Under the pieces are notes generated by a model. It was not told where the DNA came from. It did no database searches and worked only from the letters and a program-made list of their open reading frames with translations. This document shows, in pieces, positions 3,363 through 58,876 of a stretch of DNA of 64,000 nucleotides; position 1 is the first letter of the stretch; each line of letters begins with the position of its first letter. The DNA lies in the NCBI GenBank assembly GCA_037129835.1, contig JBAXUE010000004.1, forward strand, positions 25,638 to 89,637, given 5' to 3'. The position numbers and the translations under genes were made by a program. The DNA is from a bacterium (GTDB lineage: Bacteria; Patescibacteriota; CPR2; UBA1875; CAIMLA01).

Positions 3363-4267
3363 TCCCAGTTAAGGATGTCTTCTTCAATATTTATATTAAT
3401 ATTCTTTTTCACTTTATTTTTTGAATATTTGCCGCTAAGCAAATTCCACTGAACGGTAAATATATCTTTAAAAGAGTAGAAGGTGTCCCTTATGGGATTT
3501 GGGATTGCCGTAGCAGCCGAATCAAACCAATAAACAGGAACCTCAATAGTCCTTAGTTTGTATTTTTGAGCTATTGCACAGTATTCTGTGTCGAAGCCAA
3601 AACCATGATCTTTGCCTGTGACGGCATTGCCATATATAGTTTGCAAACCAGCTAATAATCTAGCGACGTTTTTCCTATATAGCTTAAACCCACATCGCTG
3701 ATCAATATAGCTTTGATTTAATAGAACCGTAAACGCTAAATTACCACCACGTGATATAAATTGCCGTACCCTGCCCTGTTTACCGACCGCTTGATAGTCT
3801 TTCGAGTGTCCGAAGACAAGGACCTCAAATACACTTTTTATGCCATGGAATACCCCTGCAAAATAGTTTGGATTATAGGGTTTCGCCTCTTTGATATATC
3901 TTGAGCCCATCACTATATCGTATTTATTGATAAATGGGAGTAACCTATCTATTTCCTTGATTGGAGTAGAGCTGTCTGCGTCCATAAACATAACAAATTT
4001 ACCTTTTGCAACGGCAATACCATCGTGGATTCCTTGGCCCTTGCCACCACGATTATCCGTCGGCTCAGTGTATTCAAAGTGCTCTATAGCTTTTGCATAC
4101 TTTTTGGCTAAATCCAGACTACCATCAGTACTATGTGTGTCAGAAAATATAACCTGAGTCTTAAATGAAGCTTTGTTGGTATAATCAACTATTTCTTTAA
4201 TTGTTTTTTCCAATACTTTGGCTTGATTTTTAAATGGGACGATTATGCTTAAATATATTTCTTCCAA
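3359..4267 (-). CDS. GT2 polyprenol-phosphate sugar synthase (DPM1/GtrB/ArnC-like)
   Basis: IIVPFKN...FSDTHSTDGS...FMDADSS (DXD) pattern of family-2 glycosyltransferases that charge polyprenol-phosphate. Confidence 0.75.
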   Translation of the reverse strand: MEEIYLSIIVPFKNQAKVLEKTIKEIVDYTNKASFKTQVIFSDTHSTDGSLDLAKKYAKAIEHFEYTEPTDNRGGKGQGIHDGIAVAKGKFVMFMDADSSTPIKEIDRLLPFINKYDIVMGSRYIKEAKPYNPNYFAGVFHGIKSVFEVLVFGHSKDYQAVGKQGRVRQFISRGGNLAFTVLLNQSYIDQRCGFKLYRKNVARLLAGLQTIYGNAVTGKDHGFGFDTEYCAIAQKYKLRTIEVPVYWFDSAATAIPNPIRDTFYSFKDIFTVQWNLLSGKYSKNKVKKNININIEEDILNWD

Positions 4268-51899: not shown

Positions 51900-53723
51900 C
51901 TATTCAACTGTTACGCTTTTTGCTAAATTTCTTGGTTTATCGACATCCAAATTTTTTGCCACTGCTACATAATACGCAAAAAGCTGTAGCTGTGCCACGG
52001 CGACTAACGGTGTGAGCATTTCCAATGTCTTTGGAATATAAATTACGTCATCGGCAACCCTTGTTGCTTCTTTTGCACCTACCGTGGTTAGCACGATAAC
52101 TTTTCCTGATCGCGCCCTGATTTCCTCAACGTTTGAAATTCCTTTTTCATACACACTATCCTCTGGAATAAGTGCAAAGGTAGGGAAGTTCTTGTCTATA
52201 AGAGCAATCGGTCCATGTTTCATCTCCCCACTAGCGTAACCCTCAGCGTGTATATAAGAAATTTCTTTTAGCTTCAACGCACCTTCTTCTGCTAAAGGGA
52301 AACAATATTTTCTACCTAAATACATAAAATGTTCGAAGTCTTTATATTTATTAGCAAGCTTCTCTATTACAGCAGTATCCTTTAAAATCTTTGATACATG
52401 ATCTGGTACCTTCAAAAGCTCCTTCAGTATATCTCGACCTGTCGCCGCACTCATTTGTCGCTGACGACCAAGCATAACAGCAATAAGTATCAATACTGTT
52501 ATTTGTGAGGTAAATGCTTTTGTTGAAGCGACGGCAATCTCTGGTCCAGCATGATTATAGACCCCCGCATCTGTTTCTCTGGCAATCGTAGAGCCGACAG
52601 CGTTAACGATACCCAGAGTGAGAGCACCTTTTTTCTTTGCTTCCCGAATCGCAGCAAGTGTATCGACGGTTTCACCAGACTGGCTAATTGCAAGTACAAT
52701 AGTATTTTCATTAACAATTGGACTACGGTATCGAAATTCAGAAGCATATTCTACTTCAACGGGAATCCCGGTATATTCTTCAATAATATACTCACCCACT
52801 AGCCCTGCGTAGCGGGCAGTGCCACAGGCAACAATAATTATGCGCTCTATTTTCCTTAATCTATCTCTAACTATTTCTAGTCCACCGAGCTTCACATCAC
52901 CTTGATCTAATAATATACGGCCCCTAGTGGAGTTTTTAATTACATCTGGCTGTTCCATGATCTCTTTGAGCATATAATGAGAATAACCACCCTTTTCTGA
53001 CTCTTCTAGCGTCCATTCTACTTCATTTATCGCGGACTTTACGTCATTTTTATCAAAATCATATATCCTGTAGTCATTTTTATGAATATCAACCACCTCA
53101 CCATCATTCAGATATATCACTTTATTGGTGTGGCCAAGAAAGGCAGATACGTCTGAAGCGACAAAAAACTCGTTATGTCCTACCCCAAAAATAAGTGGGC
53201 TTCCCATTCTCGCCGCTACTAGCCTGTTCGGTTCATCTGCGTGAACCACGGCTATTCCATAAGCGCCTCGTACTTGCTTGAGAGCCTGCTGAACCGCTTC
53301 GAGCAAGTCGCCCGCGTATAACTTACCAATAAGGTGCGCCAACACTTCGGTGTCTGTGTCAGAGTGAAAAATATTTCCTTCTGCTAGCAAAGCTGTCTTG
53401 ATCTCCTGATAGTTTTCTATTATGCCGTTATGGACCAAAGCCAATTTGCCATCATTAGATAGGTGGGGATGTGCATTCCTTTCGGTTGGTACGCCATGTG
53501 TGGCCCATCTAGTGTGGCTAATACCAACTTTTGCATTTCCGCAAATAGTTACCTTCTTTTCAAGCTCAACTATCCTACCGACTGCGCGAGTGACTTTGAT
53601 TTTTCCTCCCTCGACGATAGCAATACCCGAGGAATCATAACCCCGATATTCAAGCCGCTTCAAACCCTCTAGTAAAACATTATTTACATTTTTATCGCCT
53701 AAATAACCAACAATTCCACACAT
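51900..53723 (-). CDS. glmS: Glutamine--fructose-6-phosphate aminotransferase
   Basis: MCGIVGY N-terminal nucleophile and two SIS domains. Confidence 0.9.
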   Translation of the reverse strand: MCGIVGYLGDKNVNNVLLEGLKRLEYRGYDSSGIAIVEGGKIKVTRAVGRIVELEKKVTICGNAKVGISHTRWATHGVPTERNAHPHLSNDGKLALVHNGIIENYQEIKTALLAEGNIFHSDTDTEVLAHLIGKLYAGDLLEAVQQALKQVRGAYGIAVVHADEPNRLVAARMGSPLIFGVGHNEFFVASDVSAFLGHTNKVIYLNDGEVVDIHKNDYRIYDFDKNDVKSAINEVEWTLEESEKGGYSHYMLKEIMEQPDVIKNSTRGRILLDQGDVKLGGLEIVRDRLRKIERIIIVACGTARYAGLVGEYIIEEYTGIPVEVEYASEFRYRSPIVNENTIVLAISQSGETVDTLAAIREAKKKGALTLGIVNAVGSTIARETDAGVYNHAGPEIAVASTKAFTSQITVLILIAVMLGRQRQMSAATGRDILKELLKVPDHVSKILKDTAVIEKLANKYKDFEHFMYLGRKYCFPLAEEGALKLKEISYIHAEGYASGEMKHGPIALIDKNFPTFALIPEDSVYEKGISNVEEIRARSGKVIVLTTVGAKEATRVADDVIYIPKTLEMLTPLVAVAQLQLFAYYVAVAKNLDVDKPRNLAKSVTVE

Positions 53724-53818
53724 AATATAATCTCCTATATATATCTGTAACTAATAATATTTATCAAAAACCGTCCTTCGAATAATTTTCAGTGTATTTA
53801 TTCAATACTCGCTTGATT

Positions 53819-54106
53819 CTATTCTTCATTCTCCGTATCATCTATTGTTTTCTTTATCTCTGATACTAATGTTTCCGCCTGTTCTCGTATTTCTTGAACT
53901 GCAGATTTCTTACTTTTAGAAGCTGGGTTCAGTGGGATTATTATCCAGGCCAGTATATATAAGATCATACCAATTCCAGTAAAAATAAATATTGCAATAA
54001 ACAATCTCAAAATCGAAGCGTTTAAACTAAAATACTCTGCGATACCACCAGCCACGCCCCCCAATATTCTATTACCACTTGAACGATATAGTTTCTTTGC
54101 GACCAA
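53819..54106 (-). CDS. PspC-domain membrane protein
   Basis: YRSSGNRILGGVAGGIAEYF followed by a TM segment. Confidence 0.6.
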   Translation of the reverse strand: MVAKKLYRSSGNRILGGVAGGIAEYFSLNASILRLFIAIFIFTGIGMILYILAWIIIPLNPASKSKKSAVQEIREQAETLVSEIKKTIDDTENEE

Positions 54107-54148
54107 GGCTTACTCCATATAAACTATGATAATTATAAAATATTTATA

Positions 54149-54844
54149 CTAAGTAGACAAATTATTATAGAGTACAACGTTTTTTACATGTTTTTTCATA
54201 ATTTGACATATTTGTTCCATTTCTGACAATGAAAAAGACAATTCGTTTCTAAGATTTTGATTATAGGTTATGTCTGGCCTGAAGCCTTGAACTACATATT
54301 TATTTGCACCCTTGATTAGTTTACCAATATCTTCGAAGTCATTGAGACTATGATAGTATGGCAAAACAGTGGTTCGAAATTCGTATTCAGTTTTAGAACC
54401 CAATAATAAATCTATACTCTCTTGTATAAATTTATTATTCAAATAACCAGAGATATTACTATAATTCTTTAACGGTCCCTTAATATCCATCGCAATATAA
54501 TCAACCAATCCTTGCGACAAAAGTGTGTCTAATATTTTAGGATTAGAGCCGTTTGTATCTATTTTTACTAATAGTCCCATGTCTTTTATCTTTCGAATAA
54601 AACTTACAATATCTCTCTGAATTAATGGCTCGCCCCCGGTTATAACCACTCCATCTAATATATCTTTCCTCTTTTCTAAGTGCTTAAATATTTCTTCTTC
54701 CGATATTAATCCTGGCTTTATTGGAATTAAATCTGGATTATGACAAAAGCCACAACGAAAGTTGCAGCCTTGTGTAAAAACAACAGCTGCAACTTTGCCT
54801 GGATAGTCTATCAAACTAGATTTAATTAACCCCGATAAATGCAT
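54149..54844 (-). CDS. nrdG: Anaerobic ribonucleotide reductase activating protein (radical SAM)
   Basis: CNFRCGFCHNP cluster motif. The ATG at 54844 overlaps the upstream stop as TAATG; the track ORF uses a TTG at 54856. Confidence 0.8.
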   Translation of the reverse strand: MHLSGLIKSSLIDYPGKVAAVVFTQGCNFRCGFCHNPDLIPIKPGLISEEEIFKHLEKRKDILDGVVITGGEPLIQRDIVSFIRKIKDMGLLVKIDTNGSNPKILDTLLSQGLVDYIAMDIKGPLKNYSNISGYLNNKFIQESIDLLLGSKTEYEFRTTVLPYYHSLNDFEDIGKLIKGANKYVVQGFRPDITYNQNLRNELSFSLSEMEQICQIMKKHVKNVVLYNNLST

Positions 54845-55005
54845 TATATGACGCAATTACTCGATTTAAATTCGATGCGGTCATCATATTCTGCCCGTTT
54901 ACCTTCATTCCATTGAGAAACTGGACGTATGTATCCAACCACCCTAGAATAAACCTCACATTTAGTTCTATTTTGTTCTGACCCAGTTGTTACTTCCTCT
55001 GACAT
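54844..55005 (-). CDS. Stand-alone NrdD glycyl-radical domain peptide (53 aa)
   Basis: MSEEVTTGSEQNRTKCEVYSRVVGYIRPVSQWNEGKRAEYDDRIEFKSSNCVI matches the class III RNR C-terminal consensus RV.GY...W.N.GK..E..DR. It is preceded by AAGGAGGGGAT-ATG and lies 13 nt after the nrdD stop in a different frame. Confidence 0.6.
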   Translation of the reverse strand: MSEEVTTGSEQNRTKCEVYSRVVGYIRPVSQWNEGKRAEYDDRIEFKSSNCVI

Positions 55006-55018
55006 ATCCCCTCCTTCT

Positions 55019-57118
55019 TTATTTATTTACTAAACTTAATTGTTCTTTATACCCTATTTCACTATCACATGTTGGACAATAAAAGTGTTCGCCCTTGATA
55101 TATCCGTGCTTAGGACAAACAGAAAATGTCGGTGATAAGGTAAAATATGGTAATTTGTAATTTTCGGCTACCTTACGAACTAAGGCTTTTACAGCAATAA
55201 TATTGTCCAATCGTTCACCCATAAATATATGAAGAACAGTACCACCGGTATATTTGGTCTGTAGTCCATCTTGTAAATCAAGTGCTTCAAATACATCTTC
55301 TGTAAAATTTACAGGCAATTGAGTCGAATTTGTATAATAAGGCTTGGCTCCCATGTCTTTTACAGCTGCCGTGTTTGCTACCTCGATGTCAGGGTATTGT
55401 TCTGTATCTCTTTTGGCGAATCTATAGGTTGTCCCTTCGCCTGGCGTAGCTTCAAGATTATAAATATGGCCTGTTTCTTCTTGGTAGCTAGCAATTCGGT
55501 CTCGCATATAATCCATTACCTTCTCAGCAAAAGCATGCCCCTTTTGGGTTGTAATATCTTCATCCGGACCCATAAAGTTTTTAATAGATTCATTCATACC
55601 AAGAAGCCCTATTGTGGAGAAGTGATTTTCCCAATATGTCCCAAAACGTTTTTTGACCTCTGATAAATAGTGTCTAGCAAAAGGATACAGACCATTTTCC
55701 ATAAATCGTTCAAGTTGCTTTCGTTTAATCTCCAGGCTTTCTCTTGACAAGTCCATTAAGTGACCAAGTTGATCAAAATACTCTTTTTCGGTCTTTGCGT
55801 TATAGCCTAGTCTGGGCATATTTATAGTAACTACGCCGATAGAGCCAGTCAGTGGGTTGGCGCCGAAAAGTCCACCACCCCGTTTCTTTAGCTCTCGGTT
55901 GTCTAATCGCAAGCGACAACACATACTTCTTGCATCATCTGGATTCATATCGCTATTTATAAAGTTAGAGAAATACGGGATACCATATTTTGCAGCCATC
56001 TCCCATACGGGATCAAGGCTTTTATCTTCCCAATTAAAATCCTTTGTAATGTTATATGTTGGGATGGGGAATGAGAATATTCGACCATTCGCGTCGCCCT
56101 CTAGCATTACTTCTGCGAAAGCTTTGTTTACCATATCCATCTCTTTTTGAAAGTCTTTATATTTTTCTTTTTGTATCTTGCCACCAATAACTATATTTTC
56201 TTCAGCTAACTCGCCACTAGCGGCAAGATCCATAGTAATATTTGTAAATGGTGTCTGAAAACCAACACGTGTAGGAATGTTCATACCAAAAACAAACTCT
56301 TGCATAGCTTGCTTCACCTGTTTGTAGTCTAATCCATCGTACCTTACAAAAGGAGCAATCAAAGTGTCGAAGCTAGACATCGCTTGCGCTCCAGCACTTT
56401 CTCCCTGCATTGTATACATAAAATTGACTACTTGGTTAAGTAGAGCCTTAAAGTGTTTTGCCGGCTTAGAATTTATCTTGCCAGAAACGCCACCAAAACC
56501 ACGTACAATTAAGTCTTTTAAGTCCCAACCACAGCAGTACGTAGCCAAGAAACCGAGATCATGTATGTGCAGATCGGCATTCTTGTGAGCTTCGCGAATT
56601 TCAGTTGGATACATTTTGTTAAGCCAATATTTCTCAGTAATTTGTGCCGCCAAAAAATTATTTAAACCCTGTAGACTATATGTCATATTTGAATTTTCTT
56701 TGACGTACCAAGTATCTTCGCCCAAATATTCCTCTACCATTTTGTCACTATCTGTTAACTGCGCCTTGCGAAGCTCCTCGTGTTGCCTACGATAGACGAT
56801 GTATGACTTGGCAGCCTCTTCAAAAACAGAATCCATGAGGACGTGTTCTACGGCATCTTGAACCTTTTCCACAGTTGGTAGATTATCAGCGTCAAACTGC
56901 TTATTTAAAATATCAATTACTTTTTGAGTAAGTTTCTCGGCAATATCGTGGCCGTATTCACTGGTAGCTAGACCGGCTTTCTCAATAGCACCAACTATTC
57001 TCTCTGGATCAAATTTTGTGAGAGTACCATCTCTCTTTTCTATTTTTGTAAACTTCCTTTTTGTAAGATGTTTTTTTGAGAGATTTAACTGTTCTTGCTG
57101 AATATCGTCTTTTACCAC
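55019..57118 (-). CDS. nrdD: Anaerobic ribonucleoside-triphosphate reductase catalytic subunit, lacking the glycyl-radical tail
   Basis: N-terminal ATP-cone, class III RNR core, and a C-terminal Zn site (CPKH...CPTC). The ORF stops before the Gly-radical motif. Confidence 0.85.
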   Translation of the reverse strand: MVKDDIQQEQLNLSKKHLTKRKFTKIEKRDGTLTKFDPERIVGAIEKAGLATSEYGHDIAEKLTQKVIDILNKQFDADNLPTVEKVQDAVEHVLMDSVFEEAAKSYIVYRRQHEELRKAQLTDSDKMVEEYLGEDTWYVKENSNMTYSLQGLNNFLAAQITEKYWLNKMYPTEIREAHKNADLHIHDLGFLATYCCGWDLKDLIVRGFGGVSGKINSKPAKHFKALLNQVVNFMYTMQGESAGAQAMSSFDTLIAPFVRYDGLDYKQVKQAMQEFVFGMNIPTRVGFQTPFTNITMDLAASGELAEENIVIGGKIQKEKYKDFQKEMDMVNKAFAEVMLEGDANGRIFSFPIPTYNITKDFNWEDKSLDPVWEMAAKYGIPYFSNFINSDMNPDDARSMCCRLRLDNRELKKRGGGLFGANPLTGSIGVVTINMPRLGYNAKTEKEYFDQLGHLMDLSRESLEIKRKQLERFMENGLYPFARHYLSEVKKRFGTYWENHFSTIGLLGMNESIKNFMGPDEDITTQKGHAFAEKVMDYMRDRIASYQEETGHIYNLEATPGEGTTYRFAKRDTEQYPDIEVANTAAVKDMGAKPYYTNSTQLPVNFTEDVFEALDLQDGLQTKYTGGTVLHIFMGERLDNIIAVKALVRKVAENYKLPYFTLSPTFSVCPKHGYIKGEHFYCPTCDSEIGYKEQLSLVNK

Positions 57119-57132
57119 CGGGAATCCTCCAT

Positions 57133-57582
57133 TTATTTATTAATTTTTGATAATTCTTGTTGAAACGCTTCTAATGTTTCAAATTTCTTATATACGCTTG
57201 CAAATCTCAGATATGCCACCTCATCTATAGCGAGTAGATTCGTCATGACGAGATCCCCGATTTTTTCACTAGCAATCTCATTTGCTCCAGTGGCGTGCAC
57301 TTCCTTCTCTATCTCTGTAATCAGGCTATCAGTATCTGCCTCCTCTATAGGTCTTTTCTCTAAAGCTCTCTGGATACCACCAGCAAGCTTATCTCGACTG
57401 AACTGCTCTCTGTGTCCATCCTTCTTTATAACTACCAGAGTAGGTACTTCTAGGCGCTCATAAGTCGTAAACCTAAACCCGCAATCATTGCATTCCCTTC
57501 TCCTTCTTATGGCAGGCTCAATTTCTGTATCTCTTTTTTCGATAACTTTTAGATTTTGTGATTCACATTTTGGGCAGACCAT
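57133..57582 (-). CDS. nrdR: Transcriptional repressor NrdR
   Basis: MVCPKCESQN...CNDCGFRFTTYE zinc ribbon plus ATP-cone. Confidence 0.85.
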   Translation of the reverse strand: MVCPKCESQNLKVIEKRDTEIEPAIRRRRECNDCGFRFTTYERLEVPTLVVIKKDGHREQFSRDKLAGGIQRALEKRPIEEADTDSLITEIEKEVHATGANEIASEKIGDLVMTNLLAIDEVAYLRFASVYKKFETLEAFQQELSKINK

Positions 57583-57593
57583 TTATATCCTTT

Positions 57594-57640
57594 CACTACA
57601 TGTAGCGTAGTTAGTAAATGATAGAACGCTATATATGTGG
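57594..57640. promoter_or_regulatory. Candidate tandem NrdR boxes upstream of nrdR-nrdD
   Basis: CTACATGTAG (57596-57605) is a perfect palindrome fitting CwAtATaTwG. A CTATATATG element lies at 57629-57637, about 32 bp centre to centre. Confidence 0.35.
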
Positions 57641-57736
57641 TGTCAAGCATTTTCTTATCCACAAAAAATATTGACTATATCGTGGGAAAAATTCGTTTTT
57701 CCACATGAACTTGTAACCAACTACTTTTATAAACAT

Positions 57737-57768
57737 ACAAAAAAAGAGGCCTATATGGCCTCTTTCAG
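57737..57768 (-). terminator. Intrinsic terminator of ftsZ
   Basis: On the minus strand, AAGAGGCC-atata-GGCCTCTT (8 bp) is followed by TTTTTTTG. Confidence 0.65.
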
Positions 57769-57775
57769 TTGAAGA

Positions 57776-58876
57776 TTATTCCATTCTTTTACGAATAAAT
57801 GTTGGGATTTCCCAATCGCCATCTCCGTCTTCGTCTGTATTTTCTTTTTCAGGCTCGATAGTAACGGGTCTAGTATTAGTTTCCATAGATTGGTGTGTGA
57901 GTCTTGGAGATAATGGGTTGTGCATACCCTCAAAACCAGTAGCAATAACGGTTACAGTTACTTCTCCGGTAATTCTTGGGTCGATAACAGCACCAAATAT
58001 GATATTAGCTTCAGGATCAACGGCATTTGTGATAACCTTAGCAGCTTCGTCAATTTCATACATACCCAAATCTGTTCCGCCAGTTACATTGAATAGCACG
58101 CCTTTAGCGCCGTTAATAGAAAGCTCAAGGAGGGGTGAATTAATAGCTTGTTTTGCAGCTTCCATCGCTCTGCTTTCGCCGCTACCACGACCAATACCCA
58201 TAAGAGCTGAGCCGGCATTTGACATAATAGTTTTAACATCTGCAAAATCGACGTTTATTAAACCGCTATCTGTAATTAGATCAGATATACCTTGTACGCC
58301 CTGTCTTAGAACATCATCAACCACCTGAAAAGCGTCTAATAGGGTTGTTTTCTTATCTACAACTTGGAGTAATCTATCATTAGGAATTGTAATTAAGGCA
58401 TCTACATTTTCTTTTAAATCTTCTATACCTTCTTCGGCGACTCTTTTTCTTTTTTCACCTTCAAATCCAAAGGGTTTAGTAATGACACCGACAGTAAGCG
58501 CCCCTACTTCTCTAGCAATATTCGCAACAATAGGACCAGCACCTGTGCCTGTACCACCGCCACTACCGTAAGTAACAAATACCATATCGGCACCTTTTAG
58601 AGACTCATAAATTTCTTCGCTTGTTTCTTCGGCGGCTTTTTTACCTATTTCAGGATCTGAACCAGCGCCCAAGCCTTTTGTAAGGGCTTTACCGATGTGA
58701 AGTTTCTTGTCAGCCTTAGAGTGGTGTAATGCCTGAGCATCTGTATTAATAGCAATAAACTCTACGCCCTTAAGACCTGCTTCAATCATTCGGTCTACAC
58801 CGTTTCCACCAGAGCCTCCTACACCTACCACCTTGATCCGTGCGAATGTTTCCATATTTGGTTTTACTTCACCCAT
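57776..58876 (-). CDS. ftsZ: Cell division GTPase FtsZ
   Basis: [10 protein letters not shown] tubulin signature. Confidence 0.9.

What the first reader, a model, noticed from the sequence alone, without database searches (positions are those of the whole stretch)
54844..57118. Class III ribonucleotide reductase with its glycyl-radical domain encoded as a separate 53-aa gene
The nrdD ORF ends right after its zinc site (CPKH...CPTC), with no Gly-radical motif. Thirteen nucleotides later, in another frame, AAGGAGGGGAT-ATG opens a 53-aa ORF. That ORF carries the canonical NrdD radical motif (RVVGYIRPVSQWNEGKRAEYDDR). Its stop overlaps the nrdG start (TAATG). Established knowledge is that the radical glycine is normally the C-terminal tail of one NrdD polypeptide. 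A separately translated radical peptide would parallel the GrcA/YfiD spare-part protein of pyruvate formate-lyase and could be an oxygen-damage repair module. The strong SD argues for a genuine split rather than an assembly frameshift. A one-base indel would, however, fuse the two frames.
Basis: partly seen in the sequence, partly recalled or inferred. Interest (0 to 1): 0.7.

Follow-up and report, generated by a model that had tools for sequence, protein, structure and literature searches.

The report
Two-gene anaerobic ribonucleotide reductase
This bacterium, like many other ultra-small bacteria and archaea, encodes the radical-carrying glycine loop of its oxygen-sensitive DNA-precursor enzyme as a separate 53-residue protein, an arrangement I could not find described in the literature.

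Summary

**In the window.** On the minus strand, nrdR, a 699-aa NrdD, a 53-aa ORF and nrdG form one tight operon. The 699-aa chain ends 15 residues after its zinc ribbon. The 53-aa ORF carries the whole glycyl-radical loop. Together the two pieces tile the NrdD profiles, and the T. maritima crystal-structure chain, end to end.

**Evidence that it is genuine.**
- The junction is identical in five other assemblies.
- All 120 closest homologues of the large chain (100–62% identity) lack the glycine motif.
- All 120 closest homologues of the small ORF are stand-alone proteins of 38–90 aa with 18 invariant residues.
- Across CPR bacteria and DPANN and other archaea the junction varies from a 59-nt overlap to a 355-nt gap, in all three frames. 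Some have in-frame stops. In Synergistales, nrdG lies between the two genes.

**Interpretation.** This is best read as an obligate two-chain class III reductase, not a GrcA-type spare part, because the large chain has no radical loop of its own.

**Found elsewhere.** True spare-part candidates do exist in other genomes: ~100-aa zinc-ribbon-plus-glycine-loop proteins in Fur–rubrerythrin–superoxide-dismutase operons, and stand-alone copies on viral contigs.

I found no published description of any of this.

The parts
57618..57646 (-). Best promoter-like site (TTGACA-17-TATCAT) upstream of nrdR. It lies just after the ftsZ terminator-like hairpin at 57742-57766.
   Evidence: 11 of 12 consensus positions; a consensus match only. 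Sequence read.
57133..57582 (-). nrdR, 149 aa: a zinc-ribbon plus ATP-cone transcriptional repressor of nrd genes. First gene of the operon.
   Evidence: PF22811 E 1.3e-16; ATP-cone E 5e-22. The same synteny is seen in L001, L002, L008 and L095.
55019..57118 (-). nrdD large chain, 699 aa: ATP-cone, catalytic barrel and zinc ribbon, with no glycine-radical loop. GTG start 8 nt after GGAGG; TAA stop at 55019-55021.
   Evidence: Pfam NRDD 1-529/562, E 3.7e-183; NCBIfam NF006126 1040 bits against a cut-off of 548.
56774..57046 (-). ATP-cone (residues 25-115 of the large chain), the allosteric activity site.
   Evidence: PF03477, E 2e-20.
55916..55921 (-). Cys400-Cys401 in SMCCRLR, the finger-loop cysteines. 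The predicted thiyl-radical site that must face the glycyl radical.
   Evidence: positions. (the motif aligns with TMGCRTR of P. copri NrdD, 8p23). The motif is conserved in the consensus of 75 homologues.
55067..55117 (-). Zinc ribbon C668-x2-H671 ... C681-x2-C684, the last structural element of the large chain.
   Evidence: It aligns with the C-x2-C...C-x2-C of P. copri NrdD.
55022..55066 (-). 15-residue tail, DSEIGYKEQLSLVNK. The D-x-E-[IV]-G-Y start recurs in many split forms from both bacteria and archaea and is absent from short-linker fused forms.
55006..55018 (-). 13-nt intergenic spacer AGAAGGAGGGGAT, carrying the Shine-Dalgarno sequence for the small gene.
   Evidence: Identical in five other assemblies. 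A GGAGG/GAGGT-type motif was read before the small gene in all eight junctions inspected; the automated scan found one in about half of 43 further loci.
54844..55005 (-). nrdD small chain, 53 aa: the glycyl-radical loop peptide. Invariant core C16-E-V-Y-S-R-V-V-G24-Y-x-R-P ... W-N-x-G-K.
54934..54936 (-). GGA codon of Gly24, the predicted radical-bearing glycine.
   Evidence: It aligns with the RIVGY glycine of T. maritima NrdD. Invariant in 121 sequences.
54149..54844 (-). nrdG, 231 aa: the radical-SAM activase. Its start ATG overlaps the small gene's stop (TAATG).
   Evidence: TIGR02495 NrdG2, 211.7 bits against a cut-off of 131. Gene calls of 231 aa in L095-L096. The ORF listing extends the ORF to an upstream TTG at 54856, but homologues start at the ATG.

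Best explanation
This is a naturally split class III (anaerobic) ribonucleotide reductase made of two chains.

The 699-aa chain provides the ATP-cone, the catalytic barrel with its finger-loop cysteines, and the zinc ribbon. The 53-aa chain provides only the glycine loop. Both are translated from one nrdR-nrdD-small-nrdG transcript. The small gene has its own Shine-Dalgarno sequence and ATG and is stop/start-coupled to nrdG.

Inferred mechanism (not shown here): NrdG uses S-adenosylmethionine to abstract a hydrogen from Gly24 of the small chain. The peptide sits non-covalently in the barrel where the C-terminal loop of a one-chain NrdD would sit. Its radical generates the thiyl radical on Cys400/401 that starts nucleotide reduction.

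The small chain is an obligate subunit, not a back-up copy. The split lies in a linker that tolerates change, and related lineages have switched between split and fused forms.
For: **The split is real.**
- The junction is 100% identical in five assemblies from separate read sets: ENA x2, Logan x2 and JGI.
- All 120 best homologues of the large chain (100 to 62% identity) stop 3-45 residues after the zinc ribbon and lack R-x-x-G-Y. The one exception, P0239, has a longer tail.
- All 120 best homologues of the small chain are proteins of 38-90 aa.

**It is not a frameshift.**
- In 50 loci the spacing between the two genes runs from a 59-nt overlap to a 355-nt gap, in all three relative frames.
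- L006, L008, L022 and L087 are in the same frame and separated by an in-frame stop.
- In Synergistales, nrdG lies between the two genes.

**The small gene is under selection.**
- 18 invariant positions are shared between bacteria and archaea.
- dN is 0.10-0.28 while dS is saturated in nearly all pairs. L001 and L002 differ by 7 nt, all synonymous.

**The two pieces are complementary.** They tile Pfam and NCBIfam profiles and the 4coi chain without loss.

**The rest of the system is intact.** The activase gene is present, and no terminator-like site lies between the genes.

**The split is widespread.** Of the 80 best species-representative genome loci, 48 have the glycine loop on a short separate ORF, 31 are fused and 1 is cut by a contig end. 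Of the 48, 43 sit directly after a truncated nrdD.

**A radical domain can work in trans.** YfiD restores oxygen-cleaved PFL, and PFL activase acts on a 7-residue peptide (PMC8683613, PMC13450708).
Against: - There is no expression, proteomic, EPR or activity data for any split enzyme.
- The association of the two chains is inferred only from homology to one-chain structures. A single-sequence AlphaFold model of the joined chains was uninformative (pLDDT 34).
- Only 64 kb of the genome is visible, so a second, complete nrdD elsewhere in this organism cannot be excluded.
- Some lineages (Saccharibacteria, Dojkabacteria) show no obvious Shine-Dalgarno sequence before the small gene.
Confidence: 0.85

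Rival explanations
1. The small peptide is mainly a consumable, exchangeable radical cofactor, a spare-part logic built into the enzyme. NrdG would activate it off the enzyme. It would then dock into the barrel. After oxygen cleaves it at the glycine, only the 6-kDa peptide is replaced, sparing the 80-kDa chain. On this view the split is an adaptation to intermittent oxygen in tiny symbionts with costly protein synthesis.
For: - Oxygen cleaves glycyl-radical enzymes at the radical glycine, and a stand-alone domain can rescue PFL (PMC8683613, PMC13450708).
- Related stand-alone NrdD-type glycine-loop proteins sit in Fur-rubrerythrin-superoxide dismutase or desulfoferrodoxin operons.
- 76 of the 80 best viral-contig hits are lone small ORFs with no nrdD catalytic gene within 4 kb.
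- Split and fused states interconvert repeatedly, so the loop clearly works in trans.
Against: - Nothing in the window shows extra copies or stress regulation.
- The gene is translationally coupled inside the nrd operon, which suggests a roughly fixed ratio of the chains rather than surplus peptide.
- Exchange of a loop buried in the barrel has not been demonstrated for any NrdD.
- Some 'viral' contigs may be misclassified CPR fragments; L100 carries a cellular-type RecA.
Confidence: 0.3
2. It is a sequencing or assembly indel in a homopolymer-like AAATAAATAAA run, and the true gene is one ~750-aa nrdD.
For: A one-base deletion within about 5 nt before the stop would join the frames.
Against: - The junction is identical in five assemblies.
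- Hundreds of independent split homologues exist, with different spacings and frames, in-frame stops and even an intervening nrdG.
- The joined product would have a 30-residue linker, against 3-8 residues in 29 of the 30 fused relatives measured.
Confidence: 0.01
3. Programmed frameshifting or stop-codon read-through makes a fused protein, and the small ORF is not translated on its own.
For: A few relatives have the two genes in the same frame with only a stop codon between them (L008, L022, L087).
Against: - No junction geometry is conserved: all three frames, overlaps up to 59 nt and gaps up to 355 nt.
- An ATG follows a GGAGG-type motif in all eight junctions read.
- The Synergistales gene order, large chain - nrdG - small chain, makes fusion impossible.
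Confidence: 0.02
4. The locus is a decaying nrdD pseudogene, or the two halves are rejoined by a split intein.
For: This NrdD clade is rich in inteins. CPR genomes are reduced and lose genes.
Against: - Both genes and nrdG are under strong purifying selection.
- The flanks at the break are only about 15 residues each, far too short for intein halves.
- No intein-type (Hint) domain is found, and the small chain has R-T-K before Cys16 rather than an intein's H-N.
Confidence: 0.02

Closest known systems
One-chain class III ribonucleotide reductase NrdD with activase NrdG (E. coli, phage T4 1h79, T. maritima 4coi/4u3e, P. copri 8p23)
   Same: Same family by curated profiles. It shares the ATP-cone, finger-loop cysteines, zinc ribbon, R-V-V-G-Y glycine loop and an adjacent NrdG. 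The nearest fused relatives (P0246, P0248; 54-58% identity) have the same C-E-V-Y-S-R-V-V-G-Y core.
   Different: The glycine loop is on a separate 53-aa polypeptide. The 3-8-residue linker of fused forms is replaced by a 15-residue tail, a stop, a ribosome-binding site, a start and a 15-residue head.
GrcA/YfiD of E. coli and Y06I of phage T4 (autonomous glycyl-radical cofactors, spare parts for pyruvate formate-lyase)
   Same: A small stand-alone protein carrying a glycyl-radical loop that must work in trans with a large barrel protein and be activated by a radical-SAM activase.
   Different: - GrcA is PFL-type and supplements an enzyme that has its own domain. This peptide is NrdD-type.
- It is the sole radical site.
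- It lacks the zinc-ribbon half of the domain.
- It is encoded inside the nrd operon.

A June 2026 review states that spare parts are known only for formate lyases (PMC13450708).
Split class II reductase NrdJa/NrdJb of Pseudomonas aeruginosa (Crona et al. 2015, PMC4520616; cited in PMC9669993)
   Same: A ribonucleotide reductase catalytic subunit encoded by two adjacent genes, with the C-terminal functional module on the second chain.
   Different: It is a different class (B12-dependent). NrdJb is a large folded protein with zinc-finger and cysteine-pair functions, not a radical-bearing 5-kDa loop.
Genes-in-pieces NrdA of Aeromonas phage Aeh1, and 'fractured' NrdA/NrdJ genes with split inteins (Friedrich et al. 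2007; Dassa et al. 2009, PMC2677866)
   Same: Split reductase genes whose products still form an active enzyme.
   Different: Those splits were created by a homing-endonuclease gene or by split inteins lying between the halves. Here the gap is 13 nt, with no mobile element and no intein halves.
Oxygen-truncated NrdD (the alpha-prime form cleaved at the radical glycine; own knowledge of King and Reichard's work on E. coli NrdD)
   Same: The 699-aa chain resembles an NrdD that has lost its C-terminal radical segment.
   Different: The truncation is encoded in the genome, lies upstream of the glycine loop rather than at the glycine, and is compensated by a co-encoded peptide.

Membership tests
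Class III ribonucleotide reductase catalytic subunit (NrdD; Pfam PF13597, NCBIfam NF006126/TIGR02487) | Profile match above the curated cut-off | tested here: met
   Large chain: PF13597 610.7 bits (cut-off 26.2), NF006126 1040 bits (cut-off 548), TIGR02487 520.6 bits (cut-off 326). Small chain: PF13597 39.6 bits (cut-off 26.2) over profile positions 529-562.
Class III ribonucleotide reductase catalytic subunit (NrdD; Pfam PF13597, NCBIfam NF006126/TIGR02487) | Finger-loop cysteine(s) for the thiyl radical | tested here: met
   C400-C401 in SMCCRLR aligns with the TMGCRTR loop of P. copri NrdD. The motif is conserved in homologues (consensus).
Class III ribonucleotide reductase catalytic subunit (NrdD; Pfam PF13597, NCBIfam NF006126/TIGR02487) | C-terminal zinc ribbon | tested here: met
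   C668-x2-H671 ... C681-x2-C684. It aligns with the C-x2-C pairs of 8p23.
Class III ribonucleotide reductase catalytic subunit (NrdD; Pfam PF13597, NCBIfam NF006126/TIGR02487) | Radical glycine (R-V-x-G-Y) at the C-terminus of the same polypeptide | tested here: not met
   The motif is absent from the 699-aa chain and from its 120 closest homologues. It is present only on the separate 53-aa chain (G24). The locus is therefore a member of the enzyme family as a system, but with a non-canonical two-chain architecture.
Class III ribonucleotide reductase catalytic subunit (NrdD; Pfam PF13597, NCBIfam NF006126/TIGR02487) | Cognate radical-SAM activase NrdG encoded alongside | tested here: met
   TIGR02495 NrdG2, 211.7 bits against a cut-off of 131.15. 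The gene overlaps the small gene's stop codon.
Class III ribonucleotide reductase catalytic subunit (NrdD; Pfam PF13597, NCBIfam NF006126/TIGR02487) | Glycyl-radical EPR signal and NTP reduction | not testable with these tools
   Requires anaerobic biochemistry.
GrcA/YfiD-type autonomous glycyl-radical cofactor (spare-part protein) | Small stand-alone protein carrying a glycyl-radical loop | tested here: met
   A 53-aa ORF with its own Shine-Dalgarno sequence and ATG. More than 400 stand-alone homologues.
GrcA/YfiD-type autonomous glycyl-radical cofactor (spare-part protein) | Homology to the PFL-type glycine-radical domain (the GrcA family; Pfam and InterPro identifiers from my own knowledge) | tested here: not met
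   A Pfam scan at E <= 0.01 returns NRDD only.
GrcA/YfiD-type autonomous glycyl-radical cofactor (spare-part protein) | The partner enzyme keeps its own radical domain, so the small protein is a spare copy | tested here: not met
   The large chain and all 120 closest homologues lack the loop. There is only one glycine-loop motif in the 64-kb window. The rest of the genome was not visible.
GrcA/YfiD-type autonomous glycyl-radical cofactor (spare-part protein) | Rescues the oxygen-cleaved partner enzyme | not testable with these tools
   Needs in vitro reconstitution.
Split (two-gene) ribonucleotide reductase catalytic subunit, as in NrdJa/NrdJb | Two adjacent co-oriented genes that together cover the one-chain homologue | tested here: met
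   The profile and the 4coi chain are tiled end to end. The arrangement is conserved in 43 of 48 split genome loci.
Split (two-gene) ribonucleotide reductase catalytic subunit, as in NrdJa/NrdJb | Homology to NrdJ (class II) | tested here: not met
   Class I/II NCBIfam models hit only the ATP-cone (residues ~9-153), far below their cut-offs. This is an analogue, not a member.
Fractured gene rejoined by a split intein | Intein halves flanking the break point | tested here: not met
   The flanks are 15 and 15 residues. No intein-type (Hint) domain is found, and there is no H-N before Cys16.

The most novel reading that the evidence does not exclude
NrdD-type glycine-loop peptides may be a general, previously unrecognised class of exchangeable protein radical cofactors. 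They would occur in three forms:
- as the obligate small subunit of split reductases in CPR bacteria and DPANN archaea (this window);
- as ~100-aa zinc-ribbon-plus-loop spare parts in PerR-like oxidative-stress operons;
- as lone genes carried by phages.

In the split enzymes the peptide would be activated by NrdG, docked into the barrel, sacrificed to oxygen and replaced. That would make a strictly anaerobic enzyme cheap to repair in organisms living at oxic-anoxic interfaces.
Probability: 0.3. Interest if true: 0.85.

Novelty: new variant of a known kind. Interest (0 to 1): 0.68.

Why it matters
In every characterised glycyl-radical enzyme the radical glycine is part of the large catalytic polypeptide. 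The only known free-standing radical domains are the PFL spare parts. A widespread, strongly conserved class III reductase whose radical sits on a separate ~5-kDa peptide would matter in four ways.

- **Biochemistry.** It shows that the loop can be supplied in trans as the normal state of an essential enzyme.
- **Experiments.** It gives a tractable system: a short, possibly synthesisable or isotope-labelled peptide plus a radical-free barrel. This could be used to study activation by NrdG, loop insertion, radical transfer and oxygen damage.
- **Annotation.** Truncated nrdD genes in CPR and DPANN genomes may be called incomplete or pseudogenes, and some sources leave the small genes as hypothetical proteins. 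This can affect inferences about whether these organisms make their own deoxynucleotides.
- **Oxygen tolerance.** Together with the orphan copies in oxidative-stress operons and on viral contigs, it makes testable the open question of whether spare parts exist for glycyl-radical enzymes other than PFL.

Tried and rejected
- **Assembly error.** Rejected: five identical assemblies, and hundreds of split relatives with different junctions.
- **Programmed frameshift or read-through.** Rejected: junction geometry is not conserved, and in Synergistales nrdG lies between the two genes.
- **Split intein.** Rejected: the flanks are too short, and there is no intein domain and no H-N motif before Cys16.
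- **Homing-endonuclease origin.** I looked in the longest gaps. L086's 355-nt gap holds only a doubtful hydrophobic ORF, and L025's holds nrdG. No support.
- **Structure prediction.** A single-sequence AlphaFold2 model of the joined chains gave pLDDT 34 and pTM 0.20, which is uninformative. I then tried a block alignment (joined query plus separate large and small homologues) for a second run. MAFFT misplaced the short peptides around residues 346-359, so I did not submit it.
- **NrdR-box search.** A consensus pattern with up to 3 mismatches found one hit, elsewhere in the window, at chance level. By eye there are two imperfect palindromes 32 bp apart over the nrdR promoter. I did not pursue this.
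- **Deposited phage genomes.** Only 3 weak hits; two lie under genes annotated as anaerobic reductase and one is in an unannotated record.
- **Literature.** Nine full-text searches and eleven papers read. These turned up split class II and split class I reductases and the PFL spare parts, but no description of a split class III enzyme. Subscription-only papers and the RNRdb database could not be searched.


Full report
**1. The observation**

The minus strand of 54149-57646 holds a compact operon.
- A promoter-like site lies at 57618-57646.
- nrdR occupies 57133-57582.
- A 699-aa nrdD occupies 55019-57118.
- A 13-nt spacer, AGAAGGAGGGGAT, follows.
- A 53-aa ORF occupies 54844-55005.
- nrdG occupies 54149-54844. 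Its ATG shares one base with the small ORF's TAA.

The large chain has an ATP-cone, the NrdD catalytic domain and a zinc ribbon (C668-x2-H671 ... C681-x2-C684). It stops 15 residues later without any R-x-x-G-Y motif. The small ORF reads MSEEVTTGSEQNRTKCEVYSRVVGYIRPVSQWNEGKRAEYDDRIEFKSSNCVI.

The two products are exactly complementary.
- Pfam NRDD covers profile positions 1-529 in the large chain and 529-562 in the small one.
- NCBIfam NF006126 covers 3-651 and 648-683.
- On the T. maritima NrdD crystal-structure chain, the large chain aligns to residues 94-609 and the small chain to 610-643.

NrdG passes its curated cut-off. The one refinement is that only the glycine-loop half of the radical domain has been split off.

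**2. Is it an artefact?**

No.
- The exact 53-aa protein, the 699-aa neighbour and the 13-nt junction recur with 100% nucleotide identity in five assemblies built from different read sets.
- The 120 closest homologues of the large chain, from 100% down to 62% identity, all lack the glycine motif. All but one (P0239, which has a longer tail) end shortly after C-P-x-C-D-x-E-I-G-Y. Some are named Patescibacteria, WS5 or Kuenenbacteria by their sources.
- The 120 closest homologues of the small ORF are all proteins of 38-90 aa.

I collected contexts from public contigs and from a scan of species-representative genomes. Junctions were measured in 50 loci.
- Spacings run from a 59-nt overlap to a 355-nt gap, in all three relative frames.
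- In L006, L008, L022 and L087 the two genes are in the same frame, separated by a plain TAA.
- A GGAGG/GAGGT-type motif precedes the small ATG in all eight junctions read by eye. The automated scan found one in about half of 43 further loci; AT-rich lineages such as Saccharibacteria and Dojkabacteria showed none.
- In two Synergistales genomes the order is nrdD-large, nrdG, small gene.

None of this fits a sequencing error, a programmed frameshift or read-through.

Selection on the small gene is strong. Eighteen positions are invariant across bacteria and archaea. dN is 0.10-0.28 while dS is saturated in nearly all pairs. L001 and L002 differ by seven substitutions, all synonymous.

**3. Distribution and evolution**

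Among the 80 best genome loci, the glycine loop is on a short separate ORF in 48, fused in 31 and cut by a contig end in 1. Of the 48, 43 sit directly after a truncated nrdD.

Split forms occur in these groups:
- Patescibacteria: Saccharibacteria, Dojkabacteria, Veblen-, Buchanan- and Falkowbacteria.
- DPANN archaea (Iainarchaeum, Micr-, Woese- and Pacearchaeota, Nanobdellota), in clearly archaeal neighbourhoods with TBP, RNA polymerase subunits and AglB.
- Thermoplasmatota, a Methanosarcinales MAG and Synergistales.

Linker lengths separate the two states.
- In 29 of the 30 fused relatives measured, 3-8 residues lie between the zinc ribbon and x-E-V-Y-S-R (median 5). The exception is L039.
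- Split forms have a tail of 5-77 residues on the large chain (median 21). In many, from both domains, it begins D-x-E-[IV]-G-Y. The small chain has a variable head (median 10).

A rough neighbour-joining tree of the catalytic core places the split forms in one large clade, with fused forms nested inside it. Examples:
- Thermoplasmata sister pairs L065/L051 and L053/L087.
- A Bacteroidales group.
- L039, a fused Nanoarchaeota protein that keeps a 19-residue D-K-E-N-N-Y...R-T-K linker.

I read this as an old split, spread by transfer, with later re-fusions. Repeated splitting is not excluded, because the tree is only a distance tree.

**4. Mechanism**

Shown here:
- two separately initiated, co-transcribed, co-conserved genes that together make one NrdD;
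- an intact activase;
- no other glycine loop in the window.

Inferred from established knowledge of NrdD and PFL:
- NrdG generates the radical on Gly24 of the small chain.
- The loop occupies the barrel next to Cys400/401.
- The complex is held together non-covalently.

There is precedent for a radical domain working in trans. YfiD restores oxygen-cleaved PFL, and PFL activase accepts a 7-residue peptide (PMC8683613; PMC13450708). Stop/start overlap with nrdG and the short spacer suggest coupled translation. I could not obtain a useful structural model.

**5. Spare part or subunit?**

In this locus the peptide is the only radical site, so it is an obligate subunit. The defining GrcA features fail: it is not PFL-type, its partner has no domain of its own, and it does not sit in a stress context.

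The underlying idea nevertheless gains indirect support from two things found elsewhere.

*Orphan proteins in stress operons.*
- A second family of proteins of about 87-135 aa carries the complete NrdD C-terminal module, zinc ribbon plus glycine loop (Pfam NRDD starting at position 505-521 and running to 562).
- It has at least 580 clusters at 90% identity.
- Its genes are not next to nrdD. They overlap the end of a Fur-family regulator gene and precede rubrerythrin and Fe/Mn superoxide dismutase (L092-L094; in L090 the intervening 52-aa gene has no Pfam hit). In L078 they precede rubrerythrin and desulfoferrodoxin, and in L043 they follow a Fur-family gene.
- One genome (Olavius Delta 3 symbiont) has both a full-length fused NrdD (L075) and such an orphan (L079).

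*Lone copies on viral contigs.*
- 76 of the 80 best IMG/VR hits are lone short glycine-loop ORFs. No NrdD catalytic ORF lies within 4 kb, by tblastn or by a profile HMM.
- L112 also carries a holin and homing endonucleases.
- Some of these contigs may be misclassified cellular fragments.

These look like real NrdD counterparts of GrcA and of T4 Y06I.

**6. Comparison with what is known, and novelty**

Split class II (NrdJa/NrdJb) and split class I (phage Aeh1 and intein-fractured NrdA/NrdJ) reductases are published. I found no report of a split class III enzyme, nor of an NrdD-type autonomous radical protein.

[quoted passage not shown] NCBIfam has no dedicated model for the small protein. Sources name it either 'hypothetical protein' or simply 'anaerobic ribonucleoside-triphosphate reductase'.

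The enzyme family, chemistry and activase are ordinary. The subunit architecture is new as far as I can tell. I therefore rate it a new variant of a known kind.

**7. Verdict**

- The reading 'genuine split' is supported.
- The reading 'GrcA-like repair module' is not supported for this locus, though it is plausible as a selective advantage.
- Interest is moderately high. The arrangement is widespread, easily testable, and bears on an open question in the glycyl-radical field.

Noticed in passing
L078 5833-6123; L043 5824-6123; L066 5758-6120; L079 5719-6126; L090 5001-5303; L092 5001-5297: A family of orphan proteins of about 87-135 aa that consist of an NrdD-type zinc ribbon plus glycine loop. 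They are not next to nrdD. They sit in Fur(PerR-like)-rubrerythrin-superoxide dismutase or desulfoferrodoxin operons. At least 580 clusters at 90% identity, mostly Patescibacteria. One genome (Olavius Delta 3) also has a full-length fused NrdD (L075). These are candidate spare-part proteins for class III reductase.
   Followed up: partly
L100-L179 (IMG/VR contigs), e.g. L112 ~3960-4190, L133, L105: 76 of the 80 best viral-contig hits are lone short glycine-loop ORFs with no NrdD catalytic ORF within 4 kb. A subfamily has the head motif N-G-D-L-x-L-D-N-G-x-x-I-P-A. L112 also carries a holin and NUMOD3 homing endonucleases, and one contig has two copies (L112 and L133). L100 carries a cellular-type RecA and may be a misclassified CPR fragment.
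   Followed up: partly
L025 3233-6147 and L062: In Synergistales the gene order is nrdD-large, nrdG, small glycine-loop gene. The activase gene lies between the two halves.
   Followed up: yes
P0189 (1035 aa), P0263 (1879 aa) and many of P0241-P0390: The NrdD clade closest to this window is rich in inteins. Cluster representatives reach 800-1900 aa, with 2-4 separate matched stretches and LAGLIDADG domains.
   Followed up: partly
P0274 (798 aa). Similar C-termini, judged by eye only: P0273, P0283, P0288, P0300, P0314: Some fused relatives carry an extra C-terminal glutaredoxin domain after the glycine loop (Pfam PF00462, checked in P0274 only). This suggests a built-in redoxin reductant.
   Followed up: partly
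L039 (Nanoarchaeota); L065/L051 and L053/L087 (Thermoplasmata): L039 is a fused NrdD that keeps a 19-residue D-K-E-N-N-Y...R-T-K linker resembling a split tail plus head. Split and fused sister pairs occur within Thermoplasmata. Both point to recent switching between the split and fused states.
   Followed up: partly
window 55022-55066 and the tails listed: The tail of the large chain begins with a conserved D-x-E-[IV]-G-Y motif in many split forms from both bacteria and archaea. Short-linker fused forms lack it. Its function is unknown; it could be a docking element for the small chain or for NrdG.
   Followed up: no
window 57593-57640 (-): Two imperfect palindromes, CCACATATATAGCGTT and ACGCTACATGTAGTGA, lie 32 bp apart centre to centre over the nrdR promoter. 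The spacing resembles tandem NrdR boxes, but a consensus search with up to 3 mismatches did not pick them up.
   Followed up: partly
window 51900-58876; L001, L002, L008, L095: The neighbourhood ftsZ - nrdR - nrdD - small - nrdG - pspC-domain protein is conserved in related contigs. glmS follows in the window, L001, L002 and L095, but was not seen in the L008 locus. The window is 36.9% G+C, consistent with a Patescibacteria genome.
   Followed up: partly
L009 1867-8129: One split nrdD lies in a nucleotide-metabolism cluster with dCMP deaminase, dCTP deaminase and dUTPase. On a longer contig of the same kind, a class II reductase and ThyX are also present.
   Followed up: no
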